64,000 nucleotides of DNA from an uncultured Clostridia bacterium (GTDB lineage: Bacteria > Bacillota > Clostridia > Oscillospirales > Ruminococcaceae), in assembly GCA_947625375.1 (NCBI GenBank), contig CANQOC010000005.1:45630-109629 (forward strand). The letters run 5' to 3'. The notes below the pieces were generated by a model, which ran no database searches, was not told the DNA's origin, and was given only the letters and a program-made list of their open reading frames with translations. How positions within the stretch are numbered: position 1 is the stretch's first letter; every line of letters starts with the position of its first letter. Below are positions 10,651 to 62,532 of this stretch, in pieces. A program made the position numbers and the translations under genes.

Positions 10651-10656
10651 GATTTA

Positions 10657-37623: not shown

Positions 37624-38061
37624 ATGTTAAAGATAAGAAAAATGGAAAGCCGCGACACCGAGGCCGTCATCGGCATGATGGAGACGTTTTATGCCTCCCC
37701 TGCGGTGATGACAAACGGTTCGCGGCAGATTTTTATGAACGACGCCGCCGAATGTGTCGGCGAAAGTCCGTTTCTCGACGGAATAATTTTCGAGGAGGAC
37801 GGCGAAATCGCGGGGTACGCGATGATTGCGCACAGCTTTTCGACCGAGTTCGGGCGGCGCTGCGTCTGGGTCGAGGACCTCTATATCCTCCCGGAATACC
37901 GCCGGCGCGGCATCGGGAGCGAATTCTTCGCGTGGCTCGAAAAGAGCTTTCCGGGGCAGGCCGTCAGGCTCGAGGCCGAGCGCGAAAACTCGGCGGCAAT
38001 AGCGCTCTATGAAAAGTGCGGCCTGCGGGAGCTCGGCTATCTCGAGATGATAAAGCTTTAA
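37624..38061 (+). CDS. GNAT-family N-acetyltransferase
   Basis: Motif A RRRGIGSEFFAWLE. SD ggtgagga lies upstream of the ATG at 37624. Confidence 0.8.
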   Translation: MLKIRKMESRDTEAVIGMMETFYASPAVMTNGSRQIFMNDAAECVGESPFLDGIIFEEDGEIAGYAMIAHSFSTEFGRRCVWVEDLYILPEYRRRGIGSEFFAWLEKSFPGQAVRLEAERENSAAIALYEKCGLRELGYLEMIKL

Positions 38062-39071
38062 AGTCCCGCGCCTTTAAGAAGTCCCTCGAAGACCGGCTTC
38101 GCGTCGTCATAGATACAGAGGCGCCTGCGGTCGAAGAGGCGGAAGTCGCGGCCCCCGTTGTCCCACCAGACCGGCACCATTCCGTATCTTATTGCACCTC
38201 CGACGAAGCACTCGCCCCAGCGGCGGCGGTCGTCGGGGTTGTTTTTGTTTATGATTCCCATTTCGCCGATTACGACCGGTATCCCCTTTGAGACAAAGCA
38301 CTCGTTAAGCTTCTTAAAGGTAAAGTCGAGCTCGCGTTCGCCCGCCTCGCCGAAGCGGTTGACGGCGGGGTCCTCCAAAAGACAGAGCGGCACCGGCTGG
38401 TATGAATGTACCGAGACGATAATCCTGTCCGACGGGTCGGAGGGGACGCGGAACGCGGGGACAAAGGTGTGATGCGGGGCGGCGGCGTATGACGGGGTCA
38501 TTAAAAACCGCTCGGAATTGTTCCCGCCCGACGCCCTCACCGTCTCGACAAAGACCTCGTTATAGCGGTTGATGTATTCAATCGCGTCGAGACAGAGGCG
38601 GTCGGAGAGGTCGAGGTTCCATTCGTATTTGTGCCGCAGCATTCTCGGCTCGTTCATCGACTCGAAAATCAGCTTCTGACCGAAGCCGCCGAAGCGCTCG
38701 GAAAGCTGTTCCCAGATTCGGCGGATATATACCTTTCCGCTCTCGAAGCCCTCGGCGGTCGGTTGGAAGAGGTGGTTGTCGTGATGAATGTTGACGATTG
38801 TGTAAAGTCCGGCGTCGAGGGAATACCCCGCGGCCTCGGCGACGCGCTCCAGAAACGCGGGGTCGATGTTATACTCCGCGTCGACATGGCGGCTCCACGA
38901 CACCGGCAGACGCAGCGTTTTAAAGCCGTATGACGCGATTTTTTCGAGCATCGCGCGCTCGGTTCGCGGGTTGCCCCATGAGGTTTCGTCCGGGGCGGCG
39001 TCGAAGGTGTTGCCGAGGTTCCATCCGATTCCCATGTCGGTCATAAGCCTTTCGGCGAGACGTTTCTCCAT
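38058..39071 (-). CDS. GH5 glycoside hydrolase (cellulase family), no signal peptide
   Basis: GWNLGNTFDA, acid/base ESMNEPR and nucleophile context VIGEMG. Confidence 0.88.
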   Translation of the reverse strand: MEKRLAERLMTDMGIGWNLGNTFDAAPDETSWGNPRTERAMLEKIASYGFKTLRLPVSWSRHVDAEYNIDPAFLERVAEAAGYSLDAGLYTIVNIHHDNHLFQPTAEGFESGKVYIRRIWEQLSERFGGFGQKLIFESMNEPRMLRHKYEWNLDLSDRLCLDAIEYINRYNEVFVETVRASGGNNSERFLMTPSYAAAPHHTFVPAFRVPSDPSDRIIVSVHSYQPVPLCLLEDPAVNRFGEAGERELDFTFKKLNECFVSKGIPVVIGEMGIINKNNPDDRRRWGECFVGGAIRYGMVPVWWDNGGRDFRLFDRRRLCIYDDAKPVFEGLLKGAGL

Positions 39072-39089: not shown

Positions 39090-40271
39090 TTACTCGGGTC
39101 TCGATGACTTGATTTCGTCGAGCGGGGTGACAAGTCCTGCCATAAGCCCGTCATATGCCGACTTGCTCTCTCCGTATACCTCGAGGTTTACGCGGTCGAA
39201 GAGACCGAACGCCTCGCTTCCGGGGGCGACGTTTCCGTTGTCCCACCAAACACAAACCTGTCCGCGGCTCTTCGCCTTCGCGACAAAATAGGTCGCCCAA
39301 TCCTGACGGTCATAGGGGTTGCTCTTGTTCGTGATTCCCATTTCGTCGATGATGACGCCGACGCCGTTTTTGCCGAATTTCTCGTAGTTTTTATCGATGA
39401 CGTCGTCAATCGAGCCGCGCGCCGCGGCGTCAAAGGTCTTTATATCCATTCTGTCGCCGTTCATCGCGAGGTCATAGGGGGTATAGGCGTGGACCGAAAT
39501 CAAAAGCTTTCCCTCGGCCGAGTCGGTCGGGAGCTTATAGGGGTCTTGGAGCGCATAGTACCCCGAGCCGCAGTATACCCCGAGGAGAAGATATCTCTCG
39601 GGATTCCTTCCGCCGGCGGCGCGGACGATGTCGACAAACCTCTGGTTGCAGTTGCTGATGATTTTTAAGGCGTCGAGGCAGTCGGTGTTGTTATAGTCGA
39701 CCCACCACTCATACTGCGTATTCGTAAGGCGCGGCTCGTTCATCGACTGGAAGATAAGGTGCTGGTCATAGTCCTTGAACCTCTCCGCAATCTGTGCCCA
39801 GATTTTTTCGATATAGTTATAGGTCTCGTCCTCGTGGGACTTCGAGGGATAATAGAAATCGTTGTCGTGATGAGAATTGAGGATTACGAACATGTCGTTG
39901 TCGAGAGCATAGTTCACAACCTCTTCGACGCGGTCCATCCAGTCTTCGTCGATGACGTAGTCCGGGGCGCCGGAGGTATGAAGTCCCCAAGAGGTCGGAA
40001 TCCTTATCGTGTTGAACCCGAGCTCGTGGATTTTATCTATCATCTCGTGGGTCGTGACCGGCTGGTACCAAGCGGTTTCGCCCTCGGGCGCGTCAAGGGT
40101 ATTTCCGAGGTTCCACCCCACGCCCATCTCGGACAAAAGCTCGTCCATCGAATATTCCTCGGCATTTACGGCCGCGTCGCCGTGGGTGTTGCCGACAGAA
40201 TCGCCGTTCCCGCAGGAGACGAGCGACAGCGCAATCAGCGCCGCAAGCATCAGAGTAAGAAATCTTTTCAT
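39090..40271 (-). CDS. GH5 glycoside hydrolase (cellulase family), lipoprotein
   Basis: Signal peptide with lipobox LVSCG, then GWNLGNTLDA, QSMNEPR and IIDEMG. Confidence 0.88.
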   Translation of the reverse strand: MKRFLTLMLAALIALSLVSCGNGDSVGNTHGDAAVNAEEYSMDELLSEMGVGWNLGNTLDAPEGETAWYQPVTTHEMIDKIHELGFNTIRIPTSWGLHTSGAPDYVIDEDWMDRVEEVVNYALDNDMFVILNSHHDNDFYYPSKSHEDETYNYIEKIWAQIAERFKDYDQHLIFQSMNEPRLTNTQYEWWVDYNNTDCLDALKIISNCNQRFVDIVRAAGGRNPERYLLLGVYCGSGYYALQDPYKLPTDSAEGKLLISVHAYTPYDLAMNGDRMDIKTFDAAARGSIDDVIDKNYEKFGKNGVGVIIDEMGITNKSNPYDRQDWATYFVAKAKSRGQVCVWWDNGNVAPGSEAFGLFDRVNLEVYGESKSAYDGLMAGLVTPLDEIKSSRPE

Positions 40272-40447
40272 ATCAAATCCTCCTTTAAATCAAAAAACTC
40301 CGGACTTATTATAATCCAACCCGCCGCTGTTGTCAACCGGATTAGAGGTTAGAAATTAGAGATTAGAAATTAGAAGTCAGAAAAATGCCCGCACGGTTAG
40401 ATGCGGGCGATTTTAAGGAAAAAGCTGTTATGCCGTTGTCGGTTAAA

Positions 40448-40708
40448 TCAGTCTCCCGAGCCGACCGGGCCGTTATATCCGCACCAGTCGCAGACAAGGC
40501 TGTTTCCGCCGTCGTACAGATAGATATACGACCCGCCGGACTTCTTGCACATCGGGCAGCAGGGCGCCGGGCGCGTCTTCTGCTCCGCGCCGTCGGATTT
40601 TTTCAGCATCGCGCCGACGCTCTTAATCACGTCGCCGACAATTCCGCCCCCGACAGCTCCCGAGAGCTCGCCGTCTTTAAGCTCGCAATCCTCTTTTCTG
40701 TTGGACAT
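40448..40708 (-). CDS. Array A member A10: double-glycine-leader peptide with zinc-ribbon-like core
   Basis: Leader ...ELKDGELSGAVGG. Core GIVGDVIKSVGAMLKK, a linker, then CCPMCKK...CDWCGYNGP. Confidence 0.75.
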   Translation of the reverse strand: MSNRKEDCELKDGELSGAVGGGIVGDVIKSVGAMLKKSDGAEQKTRPAPCCPMCKKSGGSYIYLYDGGNSLVCDWCGYNGPVGSGD

Positions 40709-40751
40709 TCCGTCAGCCTCCTTTCGTCCTCGGCCGGTCGGCCTTGGGTTA

Positions 40752-41069
40752 TCATCTCATCGTGACAAAGCCGAATTCGTCTTTTCCGATAGAGTCAGGC
40801 TTCGGGGGTTCTTTTTCCTCATGCTTTGGGCGGAACATGGACAGCCAAAAGTCTCCGCACGCTTCCAAAAAATCGTCAAGGATTTCAATTCCTCCGGCGG
40901 CGCCTTCGATTTCCTCGTCAGAAATCTCTCCGCTCCTCGCGTTTATCTTAGAGAAAAACTTCTCGGCGTCTTCCGGCGCGAGGTCCTTGCCGTTTTCCTT
41001 TGCAAGCTCGATAAGCTCGCCGGCGGACTTTGCCGCCCTTGCCCTTTTAATGAATTCTTCTTGTGTCAT
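40752..41069 (-). CDS. Array A member A9: Nif11-type-leader precursor
   Basis: Leader MTQEEFIKRARAAKSAGELIELAKENG...SGEISDEEIEGAAGG. 45-aa core IEILDDFLEACGDFWLSMFRPKHEEKEPPKPDS... Confidence 0.8.
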   Translation of the reverse strand: MTQEEFIKRARAAKSAGELIELAKENGKDLAPEDAEKFFSKINARSGEISDEEIEGAAGGIEILDDFLEACGDFWLSMFRPKHEEKEPPKPDSIGKDEFGFVTMR

Positions 41070-41092
41070 AATATTATCTCCTTTCGGTATTT

Positions 41093-41410
41093 TTATCTCA
41101 TCGTGACAAAGCCGAATTCGTCTTTTCCGATAGAGTCGGGCTTCGGGGGTTCTTTTTCCTCATGCTTTGGGCGGAACATGGACAGCCAAAAGTCTCCGCA
41201 CGCTTCCAAAAAATCGTCAAGGATTTCAATTCCTCCGGCGGCGCCTTCGATTTCCTCGTCAGAAATCTCTCCGCTCCTCGCGTTTATCTTGGAGAAAAGC
41301 TTCTCGGCGTCTTCCAACGCGAGGTTATTGCCGTTTTCCTTTGCAAGCTCGATAAGCTCGCCGGCGGACTTTGCCGCCTTTAATGTTTTAATAATTTCTT
41401 CGTTAGCCAT
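41093..41410 (-). CDS. Array A member A8: Nif11-type-leader precursor (paralog of A9, identical core)
   Basis: The C-terminal two thirds are identical in protein to A9, while the N-terminal leader is diverged. 341-bp tandem duplication. Confidence 0.8.
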   Translation of the reverse strand: MANEEIIKTLKAAKSAGELIELAKENGNNLALEDAEKLFSKINARSGEISDEEIEGAAGGIEILDDFLEACGDFWLSMFRPKHEEKEPPKPDSIGKDEFGFVTMR

Positions 41411-41458
41411 AATAATATCCTCCTGTAAATAAGTATCGGCTTTACTGTCCGAAGATTC

Positions 41459-41782
41459 TCAGTTCTTAATGATAACCTTCTTATTACGCGGATCCAACAG
41501 CTGGCAGAGCAGCATATCGGGTTCATGACCCAGATGTCTGCAGGTTCCGCAGCACCCCTGAAGAATAACCTTGGCTTCGCCGTTGGTAATGCCCTTTTGG
41601 CGCGCGTAAAGGGAAATATTCATTTCGCTCGGAGTGCTGTCGCCCGGCTGATACTGTCCGATAATACACTTGGTGTCAAGCTTAATGACGGGATAGTCGA
41701 GAGAGCCTTCGCCCCCGCCCGCCGCGGCGCTGAGCTTAACGTCGTTAATTTCGCTGTGCTTAATAATCTCTTCATCTGCCAT
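41459..41782 (-). CDS. Array A member A7: short GG-leader precursor with 84-aa core
   Basis: Leader MADEEIIKHSEINDVKLSAAAGG. The core ends ...LQGCCGTCRHLGHEPDMLLCQLL... Confidence 0.72.
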   Translation of the reverse strand: MADEEIIKHSEINDVKLSAAAGGGEGSLDYPVIKLDTKCIIGQYQPGDSTPSEMNISLYARQKGITNGEAKVILQGCCGTCRHLGHEPDMLLCQLLDPRNKKVIIKN

Positions 41783-41823
41783 AATATCGCCTTCTTTCTT
41801 AACGATTAAATTAACCCGGGTTA

Positions 41824-42159
41824 TTAGTTTAGATATAACGGTCCTTCATATCCGCAGTCGTCACAGTAAATCATCTTTGTGCCGTCGGGAGCGTCGTGAA
41901 TAAAAATCCATGCCGACGACGTCTGACCGCAAATCGGGCATTTTTCGGGAGTCCAAGGCGGCGCCGCGGGAGTGGGAGCTTTCGGCTCTTTCTGCTTTTT
42001 CGGCTTAGAGTCCTTTCCACCGTAAAACAAACCGCCGATAGATTCCTTGACCCAGTCAACTACTCCCCCGCCGGCGACATTGTCGAGATTGTCGTCCGAG
42101 ATTTCGTGCGGCTCGGCGGCCTCGATTTTTTCTTCTTTTTTGATTTCCTTTTCAGACAT
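41824..42159 (-). CDS. Array A member A6: GG-leader peptide with zinc-ribbon-like core
   Basis: Leader ...HEISDDNLDNVAGG. Core GVVDWVKESIGG, a Lys/Pro-rich linker, then CPICGQ...CDDCGYEGP. Confidence 0.75.
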   Translation of the reverse strand: MSEKEIKKEEKIEAAEPHEISDDNLDNVAGGGVVDWVKESIGGLFYGGKDSKPKKQKEPKAPTPAAPPWTPEKCPICGQTSSAWIFIHDAPDGTKMIYCDDCGYEGPLYLN

Positions 42160-42205
42160 AATATTATCTCCTTTAAATAAATTTCGTCAGTCGGATATGC
42201 GGTCA

Positions 42206-42451
42206 TCAGACCGAGGACAAGGGCCCCTCATATCCGCACAGCAAGCATTTAATCATAACCGTGCCGTCATCGGCCGCGGTGCCGAAAACAAAAACATTGT
42301 CCACAGGCTTATGGCAAAAGGGGCAGAGGTCGGGTTCCTTCGGCTTCTCCCAAGGATAATGCAAATCCGCCTTAATCCAATCATCGATTGCTCCCCCTCC
42401 CGACGCCTTTTCGAGAGCGCCGTCCGAGAGCTCGCTGTTAAGCCTTTTCAT
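42206..42451 (-). CDS. Array A member A5: GG-leader peptide with zinc-ribbon-like core
   Basis: The ATG at 42451 follows SD aaggagga. Leader MKRLNSELSDGALEKASGG. Core GAIDDWIKADL...CPFCHK...CLLCGYEGP. Confidence 0.75.
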   Translation of the reverse strand: MKRLNSELSDGALEKASGGGAIDDWIKADLHYPWEKPKEPDLCPFCHKPVDNVFVFGTAADDGTVMIKCLLCGYEGPLSSV

Positions 42452-42474: not shown

Positions 42475-42657
42475 TCAAAGCCTGCACATGCCGTTGCCGC
42501 AATATTGTCTGCAGTTGTCACAGGACTTATCTTTACTGCCATACTTCCCATTAAAAAGGTCGCAGTAATGCTCGGGCGGGCAGTCGTGACCCCCGTCGAC
42601 CCCGACGCTCTTTCCGCCGGTAACCTTCTCGGTTTCAATGTCTTTAGATTCTTTCAT
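42475..42657 (-). CDS. Array A member A4: bacteriocin-type GG-leader, 6-Cys core
   Basis: MKESKDIETEKVTGG then KSVGVDGGHDCPPEHYC...SCDNCRQYCGNGMCRL. Confidence 0.8.
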   Translation of the reverse strand: MKESKDIETEKVTGGKSVGVDGGHDCPPEHYCDLFNGKYGSKDKSCDNCRQYCGNGMCRL

Positions 42658-42682
42658 TGTAAAGTCCCCTTTCTTCAGTCAA

Positions 42683-42868
42683 TCAAAGTCTGCACCTGTT
42701 GTTGCCGGAATACGCCTGACAGTTGTCACAGGACGTATCCTTCTTCCACTTATCCTTCGCGCAAAATCCTCCGCAGGTATGCGCGGGCGGGCAGTCGTGA
42801 CCCCCGTCGACTCCGACGCTCTTTCCGCCGGTTGCTTCCTCAATCTCGAAATCATTAAGCTCTTTCAT
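42683..42868 (-). CDS. Array A member A3: bacteriocin-type GG-leader, 6-Cys core
   Basis: MKELNDFEIEEATGG then KSVGVDGGHDCPPAHTCGGFC...SCDNCQAYSGNNRCRL. Confidence 0.8.
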   Translation of the reverse strand: MKELNDFEIEEATGGKSVGVDGGHDCPPAHTCGGFCAKDKWKKDTSCDNCQAYSGNNRCRL

Positions 42869-42891
42869 TGTAAATCCTCCTTAAAATAATG

Positions 42892-43110
42892 TTATCGTGC
42901 ATGGTTGCACAGGTCTTTTCCGTCGTTGTTTTTTCCGCAATGGTGACGGCAGTTGTAACAGGAATCCGGGTCTCCCGGAAGTCTTCCGCTGCCCTCTTTC
43001 TCGTGATAATACTTGCATATCTTGCTTTCGGGACAGGTCCAATAGCCGTAGACGTTGACGGTTCTTCCGCCGGTGACTTCCTCAATCTCGAAATCATTAA
43101 GCTCTTTCAT
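42892..43110 (-). CDS. Array A member A2: bacteriocin-type GG-leader, 6-Cys core
   Basis: MKELNDFEIEEVTGG then RTVNVYGYWTCPESKIC...GDPDSCYNCRHHCGKNNDGKDLC. Confidence 0.8.
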   Translation of the reverse strand: MKELNDFEIEEVTGGRTVNVYGYWTCPESKICKYYHEKEGSGRLPGDPDSCYNCRHHCGKNNDGKDLCNHAR

Positions 43111-43127
43111 TGTAATTCCTCCTTAAA

Positions 43128-43355
43128 TTACGGTTCCCACCAAGCTAATGTGCACAGGTTTTCTCCCTTTTGATTATATCCGCAGAAGAAGCGGCAGTAG
43201 ATGCAGGAATCAGGGTCTCCCGGCTGTTTGACCATGCCATCCTTAAATAAATAATGCTTACACATACGGCTTTCGGGACCAACCCAATAACCTATCGGGT
43301 TGACACTTCTTCCTCCGGCGGCCGTCTCGAGTTCCTTGTCGTTAATTTCTTTCAT
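43128..43355 (-). CDS. Array A member A1: bacteriocin-type GG-leader, 5-Cys core
   Basis: MKEINDKELETAAGG then RSVNPIGYWVGPESRMC...GDPDSCIYCRFFCGYNQKGENLC. Confidence 0.8.
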   Translation of the reverse strand: MKEINDKELETAAGGRSVNPIGYWVGPESRMCKHYLFKDGMVKQPGDPDSCIYCRFFCGYNQKGENLCTLAWWEP

Positions 43356-43405: not shown

Positions 43406-43469
43406 ATTATACCACTATTTTTTGATTTTGGCGTGTCGTTTACGTCACATTTCGTGTCGTTTACGTCAC
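43406..43469 (-). promoter_or_regulatory. Array A promoter: two phased 16-bp direct repeats plus an extended -10
   Basis: On the minus strand: GTGACGTAAACGACAC, gaaat, GTGACGTAAACGACAC, 21 nt, TGgTATAAT. The -35 is weak (ACGCCA). Confidence 0.7.
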
Positions 43470-44245
43470 TTTTGCGCGTCAACCGAAACCGCGAACAGCC
43501 TTTCGGCATTTTCCCGCGCCGAAAATAGGATTGAATCGGGGTCGGTGCCGCGAAGCTCGGCGGCCTTTGCGGCGGTATATTTTATCATCGAGCTGTCGCT
43601 GGTCTTCCCGCGGAAGGGTTCGGGCGCCATATAGGGGCAGTCGGTCTCGAGGAGAAGCCTGTCCCCCGGCATTTTTTGGACGACCTCCTGTGCCTTCTTC
43701 GAGTTTTTGAAGGTGAGTGCGCCGGTGAAGCCGAGATACATTCCGAGCGAGAGAATCTCCTTCGCAGTCTCCCATGAGCCGGAGAAGCAGTGCATCACCC
43801 CGCGTGGTCTAAGCTCGCGGAGGATTTCGACACAGTCCCCGGTGGCGTCGCGCGAGTGGACGATTATCGGGAGTCCGAGTGAATTCGCCATCTCAATCTG
43901 TGCGCGGAAAAGCTCAATCTGCGCCGCGCGGTCGTATCCCTCATAGTGATAGTCGAGGCCGATTTCGCCGACGGCGACGACCTTTTTCGAGCCGAGAGCA
44001 ATATCCCTGAGCCGCGAGAGGCTGTCCGAGGAATACTCCGAGGCATATTCGGGGTGAATTCCGACAGAGGTATAATACCGCGGGTATTTTTCCGACATCA
44101 TTAAGCCGAATTCCGCCGACTTCGGGTCGGTCGAAGCGTGAATAATCCCGCAGACATCGCCCGAAAATAGCGACGAAACAAGGGCGTCGGGGTCGGGAAA
44201 ACGCGGGTCGTCGTAGTGGGAATGAGTGTCGAAAATAAGTGACAT
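43466..44245 (-). CDS. tatD: TatD-family metal-dependent hydrolase/DNase
   Basis: FDTHSHYDD and further conserved His/Asp positions (VHSRD, MHCFSG, ETDCPY). The ATG at 44245 follows SD aaaggcgg. Confidence 0.9.
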   Translation of the reverse strand: MSLIFDTHSHYDDPRFPDPDALVSSLFSGDVCGIIHASTDPKSAEFGLMMSEKYPRYYTSVGIHPEYASEYSSDSLSRLRDIALGSKKVVAVGEIGLDYHYEGYDRAAQIELFRAQIEMANSLGLPIIVHSRDATGDCVEILRELRPRGVMHCFSGSWETAKEILSLGMYLGFTGALTFKNSKKAQEVVQKMPGDRLLLETDCPYMAPEPFRGKTSDSSMIKYTAAKAAELRGTDPDSILFSARENAERLFAVSVDAQK

Positions 44246-44334
44246 AATAAAACCGCCTTTCGGAAAATATTGACTTGAAAAAAATGTATGATATAATAAA
44301 GACACCGAAGATTTTACTAAGAGGAGCTGTAAAT

Positions 44335-52449: not shown

Positions 52450-52513
52450 TTGACGCAGATGACACCTTTTTCCCGCAAACGACAAGGCACAGAGGGAAAA
52501 GATGTGATATAAT
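52450..52513 (+). promoter_or_regulatory. Array B promoter: degenerate copies of the array A direct repeat plus an extended -10
   Basis: TTGACGCAGATGACAC (12/16 match to GTGACGTAAACGACAC), about 20 bp on TTCCCGCAAACGACAA (11/16), then 22 nt to TGaTATAAT (52505-52513). Confidence 0.6.
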
Positions 52514-52557: not shown

Positions 52558-52989
52558 ATGAACGAAATCATTAAAAAAGCAAGAGCGGCAAAGTCGGCCG
52601 GAGAGCTCATCGAGCTTGCGAAAGCCAACGGCAAGGACCTCACCAAAGAACAGGCCGAGATGTTCTTCAAAAGCCTCAGCCAAGGCGGCGAGATATCCGA
52701 CGAGGAGCTTTCGAGCGCGGTCGGCGGGTGCGGCGGTTCGGAAATATCCTGGGAGAAGAGCCTCGGCTTCTCGAGAATCGATTGCCGAAAGGGCGACTTC
52801 GTCGGGGGACACACCTTTGCGGCGAAGACGTATTGGAAGTGCGCCATCTGCGGGGGACACATCTACTGCGACGGTCCTTTGACCGCATACACCAACTGCA
52901 CCCACCTCAAGCAGCATAAGGTCCTCGGCTGTAACAACTGCTTTTTCAACGAGAACGGAAAATGCAACTACTATGACGACAGCCTTTGA
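52558..52989 (+). CDS. Array B member B1: Nif11-type-leader precursor, 86-aa 9-Cys core
   Basis: Leader MNEIIKKARAAKSAGELIELAKANG...GEISDEELSSAVGG. The core starts CGGSE, contains WKCAIC and ends GCNNCFFNENGKCNYYDDSL. Confidence 0.8.
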   Translation: MNEIIKKARAAKSAGELIELAKANGKDLTKEQAEMFFKSLSQGGEISDEELSSAVGGCGGSEISWEKSLGFSRIDCRKGDFVGGHTFAAKTYWKCAICGGHIYCDGPLTAYTNCTHLKQHKVLGCNNCFFNENGKCNYYDDSL

Positions 52990-53019
52990 TTAAGGGCAGG
53001 GTTCTGAGGAGGTATTATC

Positions 53020-53445
53020 ATGAACGAGGAAATTTTAGCAAAGGCAAAGGCGGCAGGTTCGCCGGAGGAGCTTTTAAAGCTTGCTCACGAAAACGGCATG
53101 TCCTACTTTACCGAGGAGAACGCGAACGCTTATTTCAACGTCCTGCACCAGAGCGGCGAGATTACGGACGAAGAGCTTGAAAAAGCGGCGGGAGGCTGCA
53201 AGAGCAACAAGAGGCGTGTCGTTACGCTCGGATACATCTGCCCCGTAAACTACGGAGGCTGGAAGTGCAAGGACTGCCTTGCGCCGAACAACGTCTGCAA
53301 GTGCTGGCTACAGCCGCCGGAGCTTTCGCGCAAGTTCCACGCGTCAATCTTCGCGTGGTGCGCCGATACATGCAGCACCTGCGCGTGGTGTTCATATGAA
53401 AGCGGCATATGGTACTGCAACAACCCCGAAGCAAACGAACTGTAA
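53020..53445 (+). CDS. Array B member B2: Nif11-type-leader precursor, 82-aa 11-Cys core
   Basis: Leader ...AAGSPEELLKLAHENG...SGEITDEELEKAAGG. The core starts CKSNK, contains WKCKDC and CSTCAWCSYESGIWYCNNP. Confidence 0.8.
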   Translation: MNEEILAKAKAAGSPEELLKLAHENGMSYFTEENANAYFNVLHQSGEITDEELEKAAGGCKSNKRRVVTLGYICPVNYGGWKCKDCLAPNNVCKCWLQPPELSRKFHASIFAWCADTCSTCAWCSYESGIWYCNNPEANEL

Positions 53446-53465
53446 TCCCGAAGGGAGAATTTAAC

Positions 53466-53891
53466 ATGTTTAACGAAGAAATGATTAAAAAAATCCGCGG
53501 ACTCGGCTCGCCCGAGGAGCTTATTGAGTTCGGAAAGGAAAACGGCGTCGCAATCAGCAAGGAGACGGCGGAGAAGTATTTTAACTCGCTTCACGGCAGC
53601 GGCGAAATCTCGGACGAGGAGCTTGAGAACACCGCCGGCGGCTGCGGCGGAGGCTATTCGCCGTCGATATATAAGCAATGCCCCGAATGCGGGACAAATA
53701 TCGCGATGAAGGACTTCCGCGACGTCAAGGTTATCGTCAGCGACGAGGTTCTCCACCAGTGGGGATATCCGACCGGCGTATGCCCGAAATGCAACGTCCG
53801 CTATGCTTATGTCCGCGCGCTGAATATGCTCTATCCCGTATCGGTTGACGAAAAGGGCACTTGGGTCATAAGACCGCCGCACAGATATTAA
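53466..53891 (+). CDS. Array B member B3: Nif11-type-leader precursor, 82-aa core with two CxxC pairs
   Basis: The ATG at 53466 follows SD aagggaga. Leader ...SGEISDEELENTAGG. Core CGGGYSPSIYKQCPEC...GVCPKC. Confidence 0.8.
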   Translation: MFNEEMIKKIRGLGSPEELIEFGKENGVAISKETAEKYFNSLHGSGEISDEELENTAGGCGGGYSPSIYKQCPECGTNIAMKDFRDVKVIVSDEVLHQWGYPTGVCPKCNVRYAYVRALNMLYPVSVDEKGTWVIRPPHRY

Positions 53892-53903
53892 AGGAGCTTT
53901 ATC

Positions 53904-54398
53904 ATGAACGACGAAATTTTAGCAAAGGCAAAGGCGGCGGGGTCGCCGGAGGAGCTTTTGAAGCTGGCTCACGAAAACGGCATGTCCTACTTTACCGAGG
54001 AGAACGCAAGGGCGTATTACAGCCTTATGCACCAAAGCGGTGAGATATCCGACGAGGAGCTTGAAAACGCGGCGGGAGGCTGTCGGAAGGGCGGGTATAG
54101 GGTTGTCTCGCGCGGAAATGTATGCGGCTTGGGGCAGTCGGTGGCAATCAACGGCTTCTATGCGTTCACTGAGTGGAAATGCAAGACCTGTAAAGAAATG
54201 CCGGGAGCCGGACTTAGCTTTGAAGACTGGTATAATGTTCACAGGTCATGCAGCTGCAACCGCAGCATATTAGACTCTGTTGCATTTTCGCTCGGCGTAT
54301 CCGTCAACTTCGGGGCGGTCGGAGTCTGCGGCTCCTGCGATTGGTGCAATTACGTCGACGGCGTTTGGATTTGCACAAACCCGCGTGATGCCGAGTGA
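53904..54398 (+). CDS. Array B member B4: Nif11-type-leader precursor, 105-aa 10-Cys core
   Basis: The leader is nearly identical to that of B2. The core starts CRKGG, contains WKCKTC and CGSCDWCNYVDGVWICTNP. Confidence 0.8.
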   Translation: MNDEILAKAKAAGSPEELLKLAHENGMSYFTEENARAYYSLMHQSGEISDEELENAAGGCRKGGYRVVSRGNVCGLGQSVAINGFYAFTEWKCKTCKEMPGAGLSFEDWYNVHRSCSCNRSILDSVAFSLGVSVNFGAVGVCGSCDWCNYVDGVWICTNPRDAE

Positions 54399-54415
54399 AC
54401 ATAACTGAGAAAGCC

Positions 54416-54547
54416 ATGAAAGAAGAAATCATTAAAAACGGCGAGATTTCAGACGACGAGCGTGAAAGCGCGGTCGGCGTCCTCGACTACAGGCGCTTCT
54501 CGGAGGTGCAGATTATCGAGGTCTATCACGCATACGGCGGCTTCTGA
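54416..54547 (+). CDS. Array B member B5: 43-aa ORF with a collapsed or decayed leader (remnant or possible signalling peptide)
   Basis: Not in the ORF track. MKEEIIKNGEISDDERESAVGVLDYRRFSEVQIIEVYHAYGGF. Retains the leader ends (EEIIK and GEISDDE..SAVG) but has GV in place of GG. Weak SD. Confidence 0.4.
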   Translation: MKEEIIKNGEISDDERESAVGVLDYRRFSEVQIIEVYHAYGGF

Positions 54548-54660: not shown

Positions 54661-54852
54661 ATGAAGATGGCAGATTCAAAGTACACAAGCGTGAGATACT
54701 GTCCTCATCTCGGGCACAACGTGATTATCGAGCAAAGGATTCGCGGCGGGGTTATTTGTCTCGAGTGCCTCAACCGTGCGGACTGCGGGTATTCGGAGGA
54801 AGGCTGCCGGAATAGACTGATAGAGGATAGACGGTTAGAGGATAGAAGTTAG
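54661..54852 (+). CDS. Small leaderless Cys-rich protein (63 aa)
   Basis: SD aaagggag lies upstream of the ATG at 54661. MKMADSKYTSVRYCPHLGHNVIIEQRIRGGVICLECLNRADCGYSEEGC... The last ~10 codons and the stop lie in a purine tract. Confidence 0.5.
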   Translation: MKMADSKYTSVRYCPHLGHNVIIEQRIRGGVICLECLNRADCGYSEEGCRNRLIEDRRLEDRS

Positions 54853-55075
54853 AGAAGTGCGTCATGCGGGTTTGATGAGACATCGCACCCCGGGCGCAGC
54901 CGGCGCGCGGAGCGCGCGAGGGTATAAAAGGAAAACTCCTGCCGGAGTTTTTCTTTTTATACCCTCCGGCCGCCTTTCGGCGGCCGCGGGCTGCGCCCGT
55001 CGGAGAGCGAAGTCAGGAGGGTTGATGCAGGAACTCACTCCCCCGCCCCCGATTTTCTGACAATCTGTACTCTAA
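54815..55075. repeat. Purine tract plus nested-hairpin module (third copy)
   Basis: Purine tract gatagaggatagacggttagaggatagaagttagag. Nested hairpin at 54892-54998, homologous to 3521-3623 and 21391-21497. Confidence 0.85.
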
Positions 55076-58168: not shown

Positions 58169-60088
58169 TTAATTTTGAAAGTACTCCGATACCGCCTTAA
58201 CAAACTCATCTTTGGTAAGAGGCTGCTTGCCGGATTTACCGCTTACGGGCGCCTGTGACTGCCCCTGCGCAGGCGCAGCAGTTTCAGTCGAATTTTCGGA
58301 AAGCATTTCAGGATTAAGGTCAAAGAGAGTCATCTGACCTGAGTCTTCATTCTTTTCCTTCTTCTGTGTAGCCATGAAGTTCTTAACATATTCCTGATAA
58401 ATCTCAAGCTGCGTTTTCGGATTGCTGACTTCGGCAAACGACTTCACGCCGGACGCCGTAATTGCAAAATCAAGCAGAGAAAGCTGACCATCGTCCACAG
58501 TAGCCGATACACCTACGGACTCCGAAGGCTCAACAGCAGCCTTATCGAGATCACGATAACGGAAGATATCACTGCTCTTGATTTCATCTACAATTTCTCT
58601 GTAATGGTCATGTGCAACAATGTCAAGAGAGTCCAAGTCCTCATTGCCCGTCTGTTCTCCAAATGGGAGCCTCAAGCCGCGGCCAATAGTCTGCATAGCA
58701 AGAATTTCGCTTTTTGCCGCATTAAGCGGGATAATCGTAAAGAGGTTATTGACATCCCAGCCTTCCTTCAGCTTATAAACGTGCAAAACAATCTCAATCG
58801 GGTTGGAAGAACTCTCTATAGAGAGCAAAAGACGGATATTCTCTTCTGATTCTTCACCAGTCTGTTTTGAATGGATTTCTATAACCTTGCCCTTATACTT
58901 GCCGTTTTGGAAGTCATCGCTGTCGATAAGCACACGTATTTTCTTTGCATGGTCTGTATCTTTGCAGGCAATAAGAACAATCGGTTTCACATAGCCGAGA
59001 TCATTCTCATTGCAATAGTCTCCTTTTTCATCACAAAGTAACAGTACCGGGAAGAGAAGTTTTGAGGAATCGCAGAAGGCTCCTATAAACAGGATTCCGT
59101 GCGATCCGAGAACTTTTTCTCCCCAATTATCAACTTTCCAGTAGTGAAGTCCGCCGTCAACTTCCAGCTCATCAAATGCACTCCAGTATTCCACGTCGTG
59201 CAGGTACCTTGCAATGTCAGCCTTAGTCGCTTCGAGTGCCTGTTCCTTTGCACCGCTGCTTTCGGTGAGCAGAATGGAGCGGAGTTCTCTTGCTTTCTTG
59301 TCCCGATTTGCGTTCAGTTTGCGATCCAGCTTGTCAAAGGCTTTCTTAAACTCCGCTGTGGTGTTGCAGGTCTGGTAGTCCTGACCTTCGATGTAGCGTT
59401 TGATAAATACCTTTTCGCTTCCGAAAATACGCTGGTCAATAAATGATACCAGTCCGTGAAGATCTGTCAGCGAATTCTGAAGAGGTGTAGCAGTCAGCAA
59501 AATCTTCGGTATGCCCTTGGATAGTTCATACAGATTCTTTGCACGTTTCGTTCCGTGAAATACGTTTCTTAGGTTGTGCGCCTCATCGATAATGATGAAA
59601 TCCCACTTCACCTCCGGGAACCGTTTCATCAACTTTGATGAGTAGTCGTAGGTGGTAATGACAATTCTGACAGAATTATTGTCAGTAAGTCTCTTACGCC
59701 AGTCTGAACTATCTTTTTCTACTGTAATCCTGTCAAGTATCACTGACTCCAAATTGAACTTATCCTCAAGTTCCAGTTCCCACTGTTTTCTCAATGATGC
59801 CGGGAGTGCAATCAAGACACGCTTTGCGCCGGACTCAAGAACATATTTCAGTACAAGTCCGGCTTCGATGGTCTTTCCGAGTCCTACCTCATCGGCAAGT
59901 ACGATACCACCTGTTTTCAACGCTTGGATAGCAGCGCAGAAGGCATTTATCTGATGAGGATTCAATTCAATGTTCGCGTCCAAAAGGAAGTGGAACGGAG
60001 ATGCCTCAAGTTCCAGCTTTTTATATCTGCTGAATTGCTCAAGGAGCAGGTTACCTTCCATCTGTATCTCCTTTATACAGTTGCTCAA
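58169..60088 (-). CDS. Superfamily-2 helicase: SNF2-like N-terminal lobe, type III Res-like C-terminal lobe, no nuclease domain
   Basis: Motif I ADEVGLGKT, II IIIDEAHNL, III LLTATPLQN, then KLKEGWDVNNLFTIIPL...QTIGRGLRLPFG. The start (60088 or 60061) overlaps the MTase stop. Confidence 0.8.
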   Translation of the reverse strand: MSNCIKEIQMEGNLLLEQFSRYKKLELEASPFHFLLDANIELNPHQINAFCAAIQALKTGGIVLADEVGLGKTIEAGLVLKYVLESGAKRVLIALPASLRKQWELELEDKFNLESVILDRITVEKDSSDWRKRLTDNNSVRIVITTYDYSSKLMKRFPEVKWDFIIIDEAHNLRNVFHGTKRAKNLYELSKGIPKILLTATPLQNSLTDLHGLVSFIDQRIFGSEKVFIKRYIEGQDYQTCNTTAEFKKAFDKLDRKLNANRDKKARELRSILLTESSGAKEQALEATKADIARYLHDVEYWSAFDELEVDGGLHYWKVDNWGEKVLGSHGILFIGAFCDSSKLLFPVLLLCDEKGDYCNENDLGYVKPIVLIACKDTDHAKKIRVLIDSDDFQNGKYKGKVIEIHSKQTGEESEENIRLLLSIESSSNPIEIVLHVYKLKEGWDVNNLFTIIPLNAAKSEILAMQTIGRGLRLPFGEQTGNEDLDSLDIVAHDHYREIVDEIKSSDIFRYRDLDKAAVEPSESVGVSATVDDGQLSLLDFAITASGVKSFAEVSNPKTQLEIYQEYVKNFMATQKKEKNEDSGQMTLFDLNPEMLSENSTETAAPAQGQSQAPVSGKSGKQPLTKDEFVKAVSEYFQN

Positions 60089-61337
60089 AAATACCCATTG
60101 CTATCCCTTTGGCCATCATCGGAGGCACAGCATTTCCAATCTGAACAAATTGAGATGTGCGTGGTCCCTCAAAGAAATAGCTGTCCGGGAAGGACTGTAT
60201 TCTTGCTGCCTCGCGGACGGTAATTGATCTATTCTGTTCAATATCAGGATGAATGAAATAATGACCATCCTTTGAAAGGTGTGCCAGAATGGTATGGCAA
60301 CACGATTCATCACCTTCGACAACTTTGAACCTATCCGTGAACGAATGTCTGTTTTTATGCGTCTTCAATTCATCCGGGAGATTGTTGTAGTTGAGGCGTT
60401 TATGACCATCATTCCACAGTTCAACCGCTCTCCTGTAAATCTTGATATCCCGATCTATATTCGGTCGGCAATTATGGTGAGTCAGAACATCATCTTTCGT
60501 CCGTATTCCATATTCCGTGACATAACTGCTTGCTTTTGATTTAGCATATTTATCGGAGCTCTCGCCTGGATGCAGTTTAGGCAGATCAACAAAGAGATCA
60601 TTGACTATAGCGCCCGTTTTGATTTCAAGAAAATCGGGATACTTTAGACCGCTTTTCTTTAGCCACCCCACGATAATCATTCGGCGCCTGTTTTGGAGAA
60701 CGCCGAACGTGTGTGCGTTCTGCTCCCGACATTCAATTTCGTAACCCACTCGTTTTAAGTATTTCTGAATGTTCTTCCAAGTAGCTCCGCCGTTGGCCGA
60801 TTCAATACCCGTGACATTCTCGAAAACGAACATACGAGGCTGATAGCGTTTTAGGAAACGTGCGTACAGTTTGTATAAGTAGTTACGAGGGTCTTCTGCC
60901 ATTGGCACTTCCATGTGGCTGCTTTGCGCTCTGCCCACTAAGGAGTAAGCTTGGCAAGGAGGGCCTCCAACAATAACATCAATCTTAGTGATGCCTCGAA
61001 TTTTCATTATCCCATCAATGGTCTTGAAAATTGCCGGGAGCGTCTCGTCTGACATCGTTTCATTGATGATGGTTTTTGTTATGGAAGCAGGTATCTGCTT
61101 CATAAAATCGTCGCGGGAGATTTTCCCCAACACGTATTTTTTATATAAGCCGAGATTGTCAGTGCCTTTCAAATAATAATAGGCACTTCTCGTTTCAAGC
61201 GTTTTTGCTGCAAACTTATTCATTTCAACATGAGCTACAGGTTTGAACCCAGCCTGAAGAAACCCTTCTGAAAGACCACCTGCTCCTGCAAAAAGGTCAA
61301 TGAAATTGTAGCTATATTGCGCATCTATCTTTGGCAT
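60051..61337 (-). CDS. dcm: DNA (cytosine-5)-methyltransferase
   Basis: Motif I DLFAGAGGLSEGF, IV GGPPCQAYS, VI FVFENV, X QIGNAVPP. Confidence 0.93.
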   Translation of the reverse strand: MPKIDAQYSYNFIDLFAGAGGLSEGFLQAGFKPVAHVEMNKFAAKTLETRSAYYYLKGTDNLGLYKKYVLGKISRDDFMKQIPASITKTIINETMSDETLPAIFKTIDGIMKIRGITKIDVIVGGPPCQAYSLVGRAQSSHMEVPMAEDPRNYLYKLYARFLKRYQPRMFVFENVTGIESANGGATWKNIQKYLKRVGYEIECREQNAHTFGVLQNRRRMIIVGWLKKSGLKYPDFLEIKTGAIVNDLFVDLPKLHPGESSDKYAKSKASSYVTEYGIRTKDDVLTHHNCRPNIDRDIKIYRRAVELWNDGHKRLNYNNLPDELKTHKNRHSFTDRFKVVEGDESCCHTILAHLSKDGHYFIHPDIEQNRSITVREAARIQSFPDSYFFEGPRTSQFVQIGNAVPPMMAKGIAMGIFEQLYKGDTDGR

Positions 61338-61361
61338 ATAGTTTCCTCGTCACTCTTCGTT

Positions 61362-62451: not shown

Positions 62452-62498
62452 CGGAAAGCGCTCCGAGAGGAGCGCCCCGATAAAACAGATATGTTTTC

Positions 62499-62532
62499 CG
62501 AACCGATGTATCACTGCATCGGTTCGTTTTTT
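62499..62532 (+). terminator. DUF805 gene terminator
   Basis: 10-bp stem cgaaccgatg / catcggttcg followed by tttttt. Confidence 0.8.

What the first reader, a model, noticed from the sequence alone, without database searches (positions are those of the whole stretch)
40448..42451. Three array A cores share a modular design: amphipathic helix, Lys/Pro-rich linker, then a CPxC...CxxCGYxGP zinc-ribbon-like module
After the GG site, A5, A6 and A10 read GAIDDWIKADL, GVVDWVKESIGG and GIVGDVIKSVGAMLKK, all short amphipathic segments. Charged Pro/Lys linkers follow (EKPKEPD; KPKKQKEPKAPTPAAPPWTPEK; AEQKTRPAP). The C-terminal modules are CPFCHK-x23-CLLCGYEGP, CPICGQ-x23-CDDCGYEGP and CCPMCKK-x19-CDWCGYNGP. 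A8 and A9 share the KEPPKPD-type linker but lack the ribbon. Zinc-ribbon-like folds are normally cytoplasmic nucleic-acid or protein binders, so finding them behind secretion-type leaders is unexpected. This suggests either a metal- or disulfide-stabilised exported miniprotein or a non-secretory role for the GG segment.
Basis: partly seen in the sequence, partly recalled or inferred. Interest (0 to 1): 0.65.

Follow-up and report, generated by a model that had tools for sequence, protein, structure and literature searches.

The report
Leader peptides carrying zinc-ribbon-like cores
Three small genes in an uncultured gut Clostridia bacterium join a classic "cleave-and-export" leader to a four-cysteine zinc-ribbon-like mini-domain; this pairing has not been described for bacteriocin-like peptides, and so far it is seen only in this one lineage and is untested experimentally.

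Summary
A5 (42206-42451), A6 (41824-42159) and A10 (40448-40708), all on the minus strand, are real genes in a 10-gene operon. Each has a canonical double-glycine leader, a short conserved post-GG motif, a low-complexity Pro/Lys spacer and a C-terminal CPxC...CxxCGYxGP module.

- **Common ancestry:** the three modules are paralogs (pairwise E 3e-9 to 6e-6), so the shared design is inherited, not convergent.
- **Ribbon fold:** several weak but agreeing lines support it. These are a Lar-family HMM match (E 3.8e-6, below cutoff), two AlphaFold models with the same three-strand topology, and zinc ribbons as every top structural match.
- **Rarity:** 1.84 billion cluster representatives yield only this species' own variants.
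- **Regulation:** the array varies between strains and sits behind a two-copy direct-repeat operator. The window has that operator only twice, upstream of this array and of a second leader-peptide array.
- **Missing partners:** no C39-ABC transporter or maturase lies within about 84 kb.
- **RiPP lead:** in a related species the same operator drives an operon that pairs a leader-ribbon peptide with a radical SAM/SPASM enzyme.

Best reading: exported miniproteins stabilised by metal or cross-links. An rSAM-modified RiPP is a serious rival.

The parts
43432..43469 (-). Operator-like direct repeat: two copies of GTGACGTAAACGACACG with a 21-bp period (core 11-mer CGTAAACGACA). It overlaps the 3' end of tatD.
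   Evidence: No other match in the window at up to 3 mismatches (0.07 expected by chance). Identical in all same-species loci that cover this site.
43406..43414 (-). Extended -10 promoter element TGGTATAAT. TATAAT begins 22 nt after the proximal 11-mer, about 45 nt upstream of the A1 start codon.
   Evidence: read directly from the sequence. No transcript data.
42475..43355 (-). A1-A4 (43128-43355, 42892-43110, 42683-42868, 42475-42657): 15-residue GG leaders and Cys-rich cores with the pattern C...CxxC...C.
   Evidence: In the related species, a 62-aa peptide with the same Cys pattern is translationally coupled to the rSAM/SPASM gene.
42206..42451 (-). A5 precursor, 81 aa. Leader residues 1-19 (42395-42451), core residues 20-81 (42209-42394), ribbon residues 43-77 (42221-42325). 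Cys at 43, 46, 69 and 72.
   Evidence: TIGR03655 E 1.9e-3. AlphaFold core model has strands 36-40, 46-50 and 56-58.
41824..42159 (-). A6 precursor, 111 aa. Leader residues 1-31 (42067-42159), core residues 32-111 (41827-42066), ribbon residues 74-107 (41839-41940). Cys at 74, 77, 99 and 102. The Lys/Pro spacer is 30 residues.
   Evidence: TIGR03655 E 3.8e-6. AlphaFold strands 85-89, 95-99 and 105-107. Close relatives P0001 and P0002 and diverged relative P0005.
41459..41782 (-). A7, 107 aa: GG leader and a five-Cys core with a CCGTC motif. Other strains carry different members of this type here.
40752..41410 (-). A8 (41093-41410) and A9 (40752-41069): long Nif11-type leaders. The cores carry a KEPPKPD stretch but no ribbon.
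   Evidence: (TIGR03798 E 3e-5, below cutoff).
40448..40708 (-). A10 precursor, 86 aa. Leader residues 1-21 (40646-40708), core residues 22-86 (40451-40645), ribbon residues 51-81 (40466-40558). Cys at 51, 54, 73 and 76, plus an extra Cys at 50.
   Evidence: Absent from strain locus L001.
40387..40408 (-). Intrinsic-terminator-like hairpin (8-bp stem, 6 G-C pairs, T-rich tail) 40 nt after the A10 stop codon. It marks the end of the operon.
52454..52513 (+). Second copy of the operator (CGCAGATGACA, then CGCAAACGACA 20 bp later) followed by TGATATAAT, upstream of array B.
52558..54547 (+). Array B: five Nif11/GG-leader genes with Cys-rich cores. It includes B3 (53466-53891, CPECG...CPKC) and a truncated remnant, B5.

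Best explanation
A5, A6 and A10 are paralogous precursor peptides in a strain-variable, probably quorum-regulated operon of ten double-glycine-leader genes.

**Proposed mechanism**
1. A regulator binds the two-copy direct repeat and switches on the operon. It is probably a LytTR-type response regulator encoded elsewhere. (Inferred.)
2. A C39 peptidase domain reads the last ~13 leader residues, which place hydrophobic residues at -12, -7 and -4 before GG. It cuts after GG, and the PCAT-type ABC exporter it belongs to, encoded outside the ~84 kb examined, exports the cargo. (Inferred from the leader pattern.)
3. The released product is 62-80 residues long and is not enzymatically cross-linked. 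It has a short conserved hydrophobic/Asp/Lys motif at its new N-terminus, a flexible Pro/Lys (or Ser/Pro) spacer, and one folded part: a ~35-residue Cys4 zinc-ribbon-like knot related at profile level to Lar-type ribbons.
4. In an anoxic gut, the knot is more likely held by a metal ion than by disulfides. (Inferred.)

**Likely role:** a diffusible competition or signalling factor. A classical cationic pore-former is unlikely.

**Shown:** gene reality, paralogy, leader pattern, ribbon-like sequence and predicted topology, operator, lineage restriction, strain variability.
**Inferred:** cleavage, export, metal binding, biological role.
For: **Leader**
- All 14 leaders in arrays A and B fit E(-13), I/L(-12), D(-10), L/I(-7), A/V/T(-4), G, G.
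- PCAT1 selects substrates through the leader only. Its natural cargo is 66 residues, the same size class as these cores (PMC6959990).

**Ribbon**
- Lar-family match E 3.8e-6 for A6 and PHROG Lar-like matches.
- PDB profile best hits are Rpb9/A12 ribbons.
- Two AlphaFold models agree on the topology.
- Foldseek top hits are zinc ribbons.
- The Cys, Pro, DG and GYxGP positions are invariant across 11 alleles and paralogs, while the rest diverges to 35-50% identity.

**Coding and selection:** Shine-Dalgarno sites and pN/pS about 0.2-0.7.

**Bacteriocin-like population genetics**
- Gene content varies between strains at a fixed site.
- Alleles are mosaic.
- The array is absent from 80 syntenic loci of other species.
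- The family is confined to this lineage.

**Regulation**
- The operator occurs only upstream of the two arrays in the window.
- Its 20-21 bp period matches the 9 bp + 12 bp layout of LytTR sites at bacteriocin promoters (PMC6193735).
- A LytTR regulator and a histidine kinase lie near the homologous arrays in the related species.
Against: - No C39-ABC transporter lies in the window or 10 kb beyond either end, so export is unproven.
- No immunity-like gene is recognisable in the array.
- The cores are acidic to neutral (net -5, -1, +1), and the N-terminal segment is not convincingly amphipathic. Typical class II bacteriocins are cationic and amphiphilic.
- Every ribbon match is below its family cutoff or non-significant, and model confidence is only moderate.
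- In the related species a leader-ribbon peptide sits directly upstream of an rSAM/SPASM gene under the same operator. That favours enzymatic modification over a plain metal-bound peptide.
Confidence: 0.5

Rival explanations
1. RiPP reading. The peptides are precursors of radical SAM/SPASM-modified products. An unlinked maturase converts some or all of the four Cys into thioether (sactipeptide- or ranthipeptide-like) cross-links before the leader is removed and the peptide exported. The ribbon-like arrangement then serves to bring Cys and acceptor residues together rather than to bind zinc.
For: - In related species locus L091, a 117-aa Nif11-leader peptide has the core CPNCHG-x21-CNNCGS. It lies directly upstream of a 477-aa Radical_SAM + Fer4_12 + SPASM protein, which is translationally coupled to a 62-aa GG-leader Cys peptide.
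- That operon carries the same operator as the window's arrays.
- The L091 ribbon aligns weakly with the A5/A6/A10 profile (hhalign E 1.2e-4, probability 55%).
- A8, A9 and array B match the Nif11-like RiPP leader family, though below its cutoff.
- Precursors encoded far from their maturase are known, for example the prochlorosins (my own knowledge).
Against: - No rSAM/SPASM gene lies in the ~84 kb examined. The only radical SAM gene is a MiaB/RimO-type methylthiotransferase (UPF0004 + TRAM).
- The non-Cys positions (CP, DG, GYxGP, alternating hydrophobic strands) match zinc-ribbon profiles of cytoplasmic proteins. Thioether chemistry alone would not require that.
- The residue three positions after the last Cys varies through E, N, D, S and G, so it is not a fixed acceptor.
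- In L091 the tightly coupled partner of the enzyme is the 62-aa peptide, not the ribbon peptide.
Confidence: 0.27
2. Non-secretory reading. These are small cytoplasmic zinc-ribbon proteins, for example Lar-like modulators of restriction or other nucleic-acid-related functions. The GG-containing N-terminus is not cleaved.
For: - The closest profile matches are cytoplasmic or phage zinc ribbons of the Lar family.
- No transporter is nearby.
- The cores are acidic to neutral.
Against: - The N-termini match the C39 recognition pattern at every diagnostic position and share it with 11 other genes of unrelated core type.
- The genes sit in hypervariable arrays under a shared operator.
- The C-terminal part of the Lar profile is absent: only positions 3-39 of 55 are matched.
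- A disordered 11-30 residue Pro/Lys spacer and the lineage restriction are unusual for housekeeping zinc-ribbon proteins.
Confidence: 0.08
3. Exported metal-handling peptides. The secreted Cys4 modules act as extracellular chelators or buffers for Zn or Cu rather than as antagonistic or signalling molecules.
For: - Four invariant thiols in a knuckle geometry.
- Many other leader-bearing cores in the same species also carry CxxCG knuckles.
- The cores are non-cationic.
Against: - There is no metal-responsive regulator or metal transporter in the context.
- Strain-level presence/absence, mosaic alleles and a quorum-type operator fit conflict or signalling loci better than metal homeostasis.
Confidence: 0.07

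Closest known systems
Nif11/double-glycine leader precursor arrays processed by a C39-ABC transporter (LahA1-9 with LahT in Lachnospiraceae bacterium C6A11; prochlorosin ProcA peptides)
   Same: - Several tandem precursor genes have conserved GG-type leaders and very different cores.
- Recognition lies in the last ~13 leader residues, with hydrophobic residues at -4, -7 and -12 (PMC6363468).
- A8, A9 and array B have the long Nif11-type leader, and A5, A6 and A10 share its last 13 residues.
   Different: - No LanM, LahT or any transporter is linked here.
- The cores are 62-80 residues with a folded-looking Cys4 ribbon, not short Ser/Thr/Cys lanthipeptide cores.
- A5, A6 and A10 have short leaders of 19-31 residues.
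PCAT1 and its substrate CtA (Clostridium thermocellum)
   Same: CtA is a small protein with a 24-residue GG leader and a 66-residue cargo, chosen by the transporter through the leader only (PMC6959990). The leader and cargo sizes match A5, A6 and A10.
   Different: - CtA is encoded beside its transporter, whereas here no transporter is in view.
- CtA cargo appears unstructured inside the transporter cavity, so whether a zinc-bound ribbon would be exported folded is unknown.
Lar family restriction alleviation proteins (TIGR03655 / PF14354 / phrog_599)
   Same: The layout is an N-terminal CPxCG knuckle, a beta-hairpin and a CxxCG knuckle. It is the best-scoring family for A6 (E 3.8e-6), and it also matches A5 and P0005.
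   Different: - Scores are below the curated cutoffs (27.1 vs 39.6 bits; 16.9 vs 28.6).
- Only profile positions 3-39 of 55 are matched, so the C-terminal part is missing.
- Lar proteins have no leader and act in the cytoplasm.
- tblastn finds no match in phage or plasmid records.
Radical SAM/SPASM-modified Cys-rich RiPPs (sactipeptides, ranthipeptides)
   Same: - Both have GG-type leaders and Cys-rich cores.
- In a related species, a SPASM enzyme sits in an operon with a leader-ribbon peptide under the same operator.
   Different: - No maturase lies within ~84 kb here.
- The L091 enzyme reaches no NCBIfam equivalog cutoff.
- The cores are longer than typical and resemble a zinc-binding domain at non-Cys positions too.
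Quorum-regulated class II bacteriocin loci (Blp/Com/Pln type, with LytTR regulators)
   Same: - Tandem GG-leader peptide genes vary in content between strains.
- Promoters have two direct repeats at a ~21 bp period upstream of an often extended -10 (PMC6193735).
   Different: - The mature parts are acidic to neutral and carry a Cys4 ribbon, rather than being cationic with GxxxG-type helices.
- No immunity, transporter, kinase or LytTR regulator genes are in the locus.
- The repeat sequence (CGYARAYKACA) differs from the published LytTR consensus.

Membership tests
Double-glycine (C39/PCAT-type) leader peptides | Gly-Gly (or GA/GS) at positions -2/-1, just before the core | tested here: met
   GG is followed by a third G in A5, A6 and A10. 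All 14 leaders in both arrays end in GG.
Double-glycine (C39/PCAT-type) leader peptides | Hydrophobic residues at -4, -7 and -12 within the last ~13 leader residues (PMC6363468; PMC6959990) | tested here: met
   A5 has L-12, L-7 and A-4. A6 has I-12, L-7 and V-4. A10 has L-12, L-7 and A-4.
Double-glycine (C39/PCAT-type) leader peptides | A cognate C39 peptidase-ABC transporter in the locus or genome | tested here: inconclusive
   None was found among the window's larger ORFs or 10 kb beyond either end. The rest of the genome is not available.
Double-glycine (C39/PCAT-type) leader peptides | Cleavage after GG coupled to export | not testable with these tools
   Needs an in vitro C39 assay or detection of the mature peptide.
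Zinc ribbon fold / Lar family (TIGR03655, PF14354) | Two CxxC knuckles (CPxCG type) separated by a beta-hairpin | tested here: met
   The pattern is CP[FIVM]C, then 18-22 residues, then CxxCGY. It is invariant in 11 alleles and paralogs.
Zinc ribbon fold / Lar family (TIGR03655, PF14354) | Score at or above the family's curated cutoff | tested here: not met
   A6 scores 27.1 bits against 39.6 for TIGR03655, and 16.9 against 28.6 for PF14354. A5 scores 18.5 bits. A10 has no hit.
Zinc ribbon fold / Lar family (TIGR03655, PF14354) | Full-length Lar architecture, including the part after the ribbon | tested here: not met
   Only profile positions 3-39 of 55 align. The peptides end 3-5 residues after GP.
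Zinc ribbon fold / Lar family (TIGR03655, PF14354) | Three-stranded ribbon topology | tested here: inconclusive
   Two models agree on three strands, but pLDDT is only about 65-79. Foldseek top hits are zinc ribbons, but E is 0.02 or worse.
Zinc ribbon fold / Lar family (TIGR03655, PF14354) | One Zn bound by the four Cys | not testable with these tools
   Needs metal analysis of recombinant or native peptide.
Nif11-like leader RiPP precursors (TIGR03798) | A ~60-residue Nif11-derived leader scoring above cutoff | tested here: not met
   A5, A6 and A10 have 19-31-residue leaders and no TIGR03798 hit. A8 and A9 score 24.2-24.3 bits against a cutoff of 32.3.
Radical SAM/SPASM-modified RiPPs (sacti-/ranthipeptides) | An rSAM/SPASM maturase encoded with the precursor | tested here: not met
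   Absent from ~84 kb. It is present next to an analogous leader-ribbon peptide in related species locus L091.
Radical SAM/SPASM-modified RiPPs (sacti-/ranthipeptides) | Cys-derived thioether cross-links in the product | not testable with these tools
   Needs mass spectrometry.
Unmodified class II bacteriocins | A cationic, amphiphilic or hydrophobic mature peptide | tested here: not met
   Net charge is -5, -1 and +1. The hydrophobic moment is not above shuffles. No helix is predicted.
Unmodified class II bacteriocins | An adjacent immunity gene | tested here: not met
   All ten genes between the promoter and terminator carry GG leaders. There are no membrane-protein ORFs in the array.
Unmodified class II bacteriocins | A promoter with paired direct repeats typical of LytTR-regulated bacteriocin operons | tested here: met
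   There are two repeats at a 20-21 bp period, followed by an extended -10. They occur only at the two arrays, and the layout is as in PMC6193735. Which regulator binds is not shown.

The most novel reading that the evidence does not exclude
A zinc-ribbon fold, so far regarded as an intracellular nucleic-acid or protein-binding module, has been recruited as the cargo of a double-glycine leader export pathway. The organism would then secrete metal-stabilised ribbon miniproteins. These could act as targeted effectors that bind an intracellular partner in a competitor, as Lar- or YacG-type ribbons do in the cytoplasm, with the N-terminal motif and Pro/Lys spacer serving as an uptake module. They could instead act as extracellular ligands. 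Many other leader-bearing cores in this lineage also carry CxxCG knuckles, so this may be one branch of a wider, undescribed class of exported zinc-knuckle miniproteins in gut Oscillospiraceae.
Probability: 0.2. Interest if true: 0.7.

Novelty: new variant of a known kind. Interest (0 to 1): 0.5.

Why it matters
Double-glycine leader cargo is known mainly as short cationic bacteriocins, pheromones or RiPP cores. A folded Cys4 zinc-ribbon cargo would widen what this export route is known to carry. It would also be a rare case of a metal-knuckle domain working outside the cell in a strictly anaerobic gut bacterium, where disulfides are unlikely to form. The shared operator, the strain-variable arrays and the rSAM/SPASM link in a sister species define a compact, testable regulon in uncultured herbivore-gut Oscillospiraceae. 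The peptides are small enough for synthesis, metal analysis and activity tests.

Tried and rejected
**Homolog searches**
- The word-indexed search with A6 found only two close variants.
- The exhaustive profile search of 1.84 billion representatives found only the family's own clusters, including the diverged paralog P0005.
- The GTDB species-representative scan with the CxxCGYxGP pattern gave 33 pattern hits, none confirmed.
- IMG/VR gave none.
- JGI metagenomes gave one leaderless 149-aa soil protein that shares only the CDDCGYEGP knuckle. I rejected it as a relative.
- The ribbon-only query was too short for the word index and cost one search.
- tblastn of A6 against phage and plasmid records found no match even at E 10.

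**Context**
- I searched 80 TatD-syntenic loci from other Oscillospiraceae/Ruminococcus MAGs for GG-leader arrays and found none.
- Pfam annotation of the window's larger ORFs found only housekeeping genes: a MiaB-type rSAM, an OmpR-type two-component pair 30 kb away, and a mobile element at the right end.
- Extending 10 kb past each end added RNA polymerase genes and a serine-recombinase element.

**Other**
- Literature searches for exported or bacteriocin zinc ribbons found nothing relevant.
- I considered that the ORFs might be spurious. I rejected this because of the Shine-Dalgarno sites, conservation across samples and pN/pS below 1.
- I considered convergent modular design. I rejected it because the cores are demonstrably homologous.
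Full report
**1. What is there**

On the minus strand between tatD (43466-44305) and two GH5 cellulase-family genes (39090-40271 and 38058-39071) lie ten small ORFs, A1 to A10.
- Each ORF has a Shine-Dalgarno sequence 6-9 nt upstream of its ATG.
- A hairpin terminator follows the last gene at 40387-40408.

Two details are wrong.
- The residues between the quoted knuckle strings number 20, 19 and 16, not 23, 23 and 19. Cys2 to Cys3 is 22, 21 and 18 residues.
- The "amphipathic helix" is not supported. Helical hydrophobic moments of 0.41-0.59 are reached by 6-23% of shuffles. Both AlphaFold runs leave the segment unstructured at pLDDT below 50.

What is conserved after the GG site is a short motif: G, two hydrophobic residues, D or G, one variable residue, two hydrophobic residues, K.

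**2. The three peptides are paralogs**

With leaders removed, the cores align at E = 3e-9, 2e-8 and 6e-6. The shared design is therefore inherited, not independently assembled.

Across 11 distinct alleles and paralogs from the window and from related contigs:
- The four Cys, the Pro of CPxC, a DG turn and G-Y-x-G-P never change.
- The x position takes E, N, D, S or G.
- The spacer drifts from Lys/Pro-rich to Ser/Pro-rich in P0005.
- pN/pS is about 0.2-0.7, which indicates relaxed purifying selection.
- Alleles are mosaics. A6 alleles differ at 10-17 sites in the leader while 80 core codons are identical.

**3. Is the module a zinc ribbon?**

No single test is decisive, but all point the same way.
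- A6 matches the Lar zinc-ribbon family TIGR03655 at E 3.8e-6 (27.1 bits, cutoff 39.6, profile positions 3-39 of 55). A5 matches at E 1.9e-3.
- Pfam gives weak Lar, LysW, Elf1 and rubredoxin-like hits.
- PHROGs gives Lar-like and unnamed small phage families at E 3e-4 to 6e-2.
- A family profile finds Rpb9/A12 ribbons as the best PDB sequences, at E 0.03-0.08.
- AlphaFold on full A6 and on the A5 core gives the same three strands flanked by the two knuckles, at pLDDT about 65-79.
- Foldseek's top hits against the PDB, and several of those against viral models, are zinc ribbons, including Pol III C11, Rpb9, eIF2-beta, ZifS and a Lar-family phage protein. None has E below 0.02.

I accept "zinc-ribbon-like" as the best description. 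I do not file the peptides in the Lar family, because the cutoff and the full-length architecture both fail.

**4. The leaders**

All 14 leader-bearing genes of the window fit E(-13), I/L(-12), x, D(-10), x, x, L/I(-7), x, x, A/V/T(-4), x, G, G. These are array A plus a second array at 52558-54547.
- The LahT150 work locates recognition in the last 13 leader residues, with residues -4, -7 and -12 in a hydrophobic groove (PMC6363468).
- PCAT1 selects cargo by the leader alone. Its natural substrate has a 24-residue leader and a 66-residue cargo (PMC6959990). That is the same size class as the 62-80-residue cores here.
- A8, A9 and array B carry the long Nif11-type leader, sub-threshold for TIGR03798. 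A5, A6 and A10 carry only its terminal recognition part.

**5. Distribution**

The family is extraordinarily narrow.
- The exhaustive profile search of 1.84 billion cluster representatives returned only clusters representing A10, A5 and the A6 group.
- The word-indexed search found two A6 variants.
- The 185,579 species-representative genomes have no relative, and neither does IMG/VR.
- JGI metagenomes gave only an unrelated leaderless protein that shares one knuckle.

The organism is an uncultured member of the Oscillospiraceae/Ruminococcus group. Its TatD is at most 74% identical to that of rabbit-gut MAGs.

None of 80 syntenic loci from other species has a leader-peptide array next to tatD. 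Within the species, the array always sits at the same site but differs in content:
- A10 is missing in one strain.
- There are one to three A3/A4-type genes.
- Some strains carry an extra A6 paralog and different A7-type genes.

Array B behaves the same way, with 4-14 genes between an SBP gene and greA.

**6. Regulation**

Upstream of A1, two copies of GTGACGTAAACGACACG lie 21 bp apart and precede TGGTATAAT.
- A relaxed 11-mer pair (20-21 bp period, TATAAT 22-23 nt downstream) occurs exactly twice in the window, upstream of arrays A and B.
- It is conserved in the same-species loci that cover these sites.
- It occurs at both divergent promoters of the homologous cluster in a related species.
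- Only two other pairs occur in 1.49 Mb of fetched loci, and neither is followed by a -10 element.

The period matches the 9 bp + 12 bp layout of LytTR sites at bacteriocin promoters (PMC6193735). The related cluster has a LytTR regulator and an HATPase_c_5 kinase about 8 kb away. I infer a quorum-type regulon. The regulator for this species is not in view.

**7. What is missing, and the RiPP lead**

No C39-ABC transporter, immunity-like gene or peptide maturase lies in the window or 10 kb beyond either end.

A homolog of array-B gene B3 led to related species locus L091 (GCA_947630175.1). There, a 117-aa Nif11-leader peptide with the core CPNCHG-x21-CNNCGS lies directly upstream of a 477-aa Radical_SAM + Fer4_12 + SPASM protein. 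That protein is translationally coupled to a 62-aa GG-leader Cys peptide of the A1-A4 pattern. All three are under the shared operator.

The L091 ribbon resembles the A5/A6/A10 profile only weakly (E 1.2e-4, probability 55%). This makes enzymatic thioether formation on the Cys a real alternative.

**8. Weighing the readings**

Export through a GG-leader pathway is well supported by sequence logic, but it is unproven.

Between "unmodified, metal-stabilised miniprotein" and "rSAM-cross-linked RiPP", I favour the former, 0.5 against 0.27, for three reasons.
- The non-Cys positions also match zinc-ribbon profiles.
- The candidate acceptor position is variable.
- In L091 the tightly coupled partner of the enzyme is the other peptide.

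A cytoplasmic role (0.08) conflicts with the leader pattern shared with eleven unrelated cores. A classical cationic pore-forming bacteriocin is unlikely, given net charges of -5, -1 and +1 and the lack of a convincing amphipathic helix. The biological role is left open between competition, signalling and metal handling.

**9. Novelty and score**

GG-leader precursor arrays, Nif11 leaders, LytTR-type promoters and zinc ribbons are each well known. The combination of a zinc-ribbon-like core behind such a leader did not turn up in the literature searches, and it has no relatives outside this lineage.

I rate it a new variant of a known kind, interest 0.5. The features are real and unusual, and the question is experimentally tractable. 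However, export, metal binding and function are all still inference.

Noticed in passing
window 43432-43469 (-) and 52454-52513 (+); L091 8418 (-) and 8475 (+): A shared two-copy operator (CG[CT]A[AG]A[CT][GT]ACA, 20-21 bp period, TG-extended TATAAT 22-23 nt downstream) marks both peptide arrays. It also marks both divergent promoters of the rSAM/peptide cluster in a related species. A LytTR regulator and kinase lie about 8 kb from the latter.
   Followed up: yes
window 52558-54547 (+): Array B is a second array of Nif11-leader genes with 4-11 Cys cores. B3 (53466-53891) has its own CPECG...CPKC pair. Other strains hold up to 14 genes here, several with further CxxCG knuckles (for example L098:14336-14731 and L098:14751-15179).
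   Followed up: partly
window 54416-54547 (+): B5 is a truncated remnant. Its C-terminus (AVGVLDYRRFSEVQIIEVYHAYGGF) equals the end of an intact 142-aa leader peptide gene in other strains (L098:14751-15179, L095:11216-11644).
   Followed up: partly
window 54662-54853 (+); L098:15299-15484: A leaderless Cys-rich 61-63-aa ORF (CPHLGH...CLEC...CGY..EGC) has its own TATAAT and is conserved at the end of array B in other strains. Its function is unknown. It could be a regulator or an immunity candidate.
   Followed up: no
window 42475-43355 and 41459-41782 (-); L091:6170-6358: A1-A4, A7 and the short peptides of the related species share the pattern C-x(20-45)-CxxC-x(10-14)-C. The 62-aa member in L091 overlaps the stop codon of the rSAM/SPASM gene, so this type is the likeliest rSAM substrate.
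   Followed up: partly
window 41824-42159 compared with L001:10001-10336 and L007:1318-1650: A6 alleles are mosaics. The leader differs at 10-17 nucleotide sites while the 80 core codons are identical or nearly so. P0002 instead varies in the post-GG segment. This suggests recombination between paralogous leaders.
   Followed up: partly
window 58169-64000: G+C drops to 41-46%. The region holds a C5 DNA methylase, an SNF2-family helicase and an HTH protein. In L102 it continues into serine recombinase/TnpW genes, so it is an integrative mobile element next to lysS and greA.
   Followed up: partly
L091:1041-1241 (-): A 66-aa GG-leader Cys peptide is encoded immediately downstream of the LytTR regulator gene in the related species. 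It may be the inducing peptide or another cargo.
   Followed up: no
L090:744-1193: A leaderless 149-aa soil-metagenome protein carries the exact knuckle CDDCGYEGP after a CPCG motif. The second-knuckle sequence therefore also occurs in ordinary, non-leader contexts.
   Followed up: partly
window 9223-11364 (-): An OmpR-family response regulator and a HAMP/HisKA kinase pair lie about 30 kb from array A. Nothing links them to the arrays.
   Followed up: no
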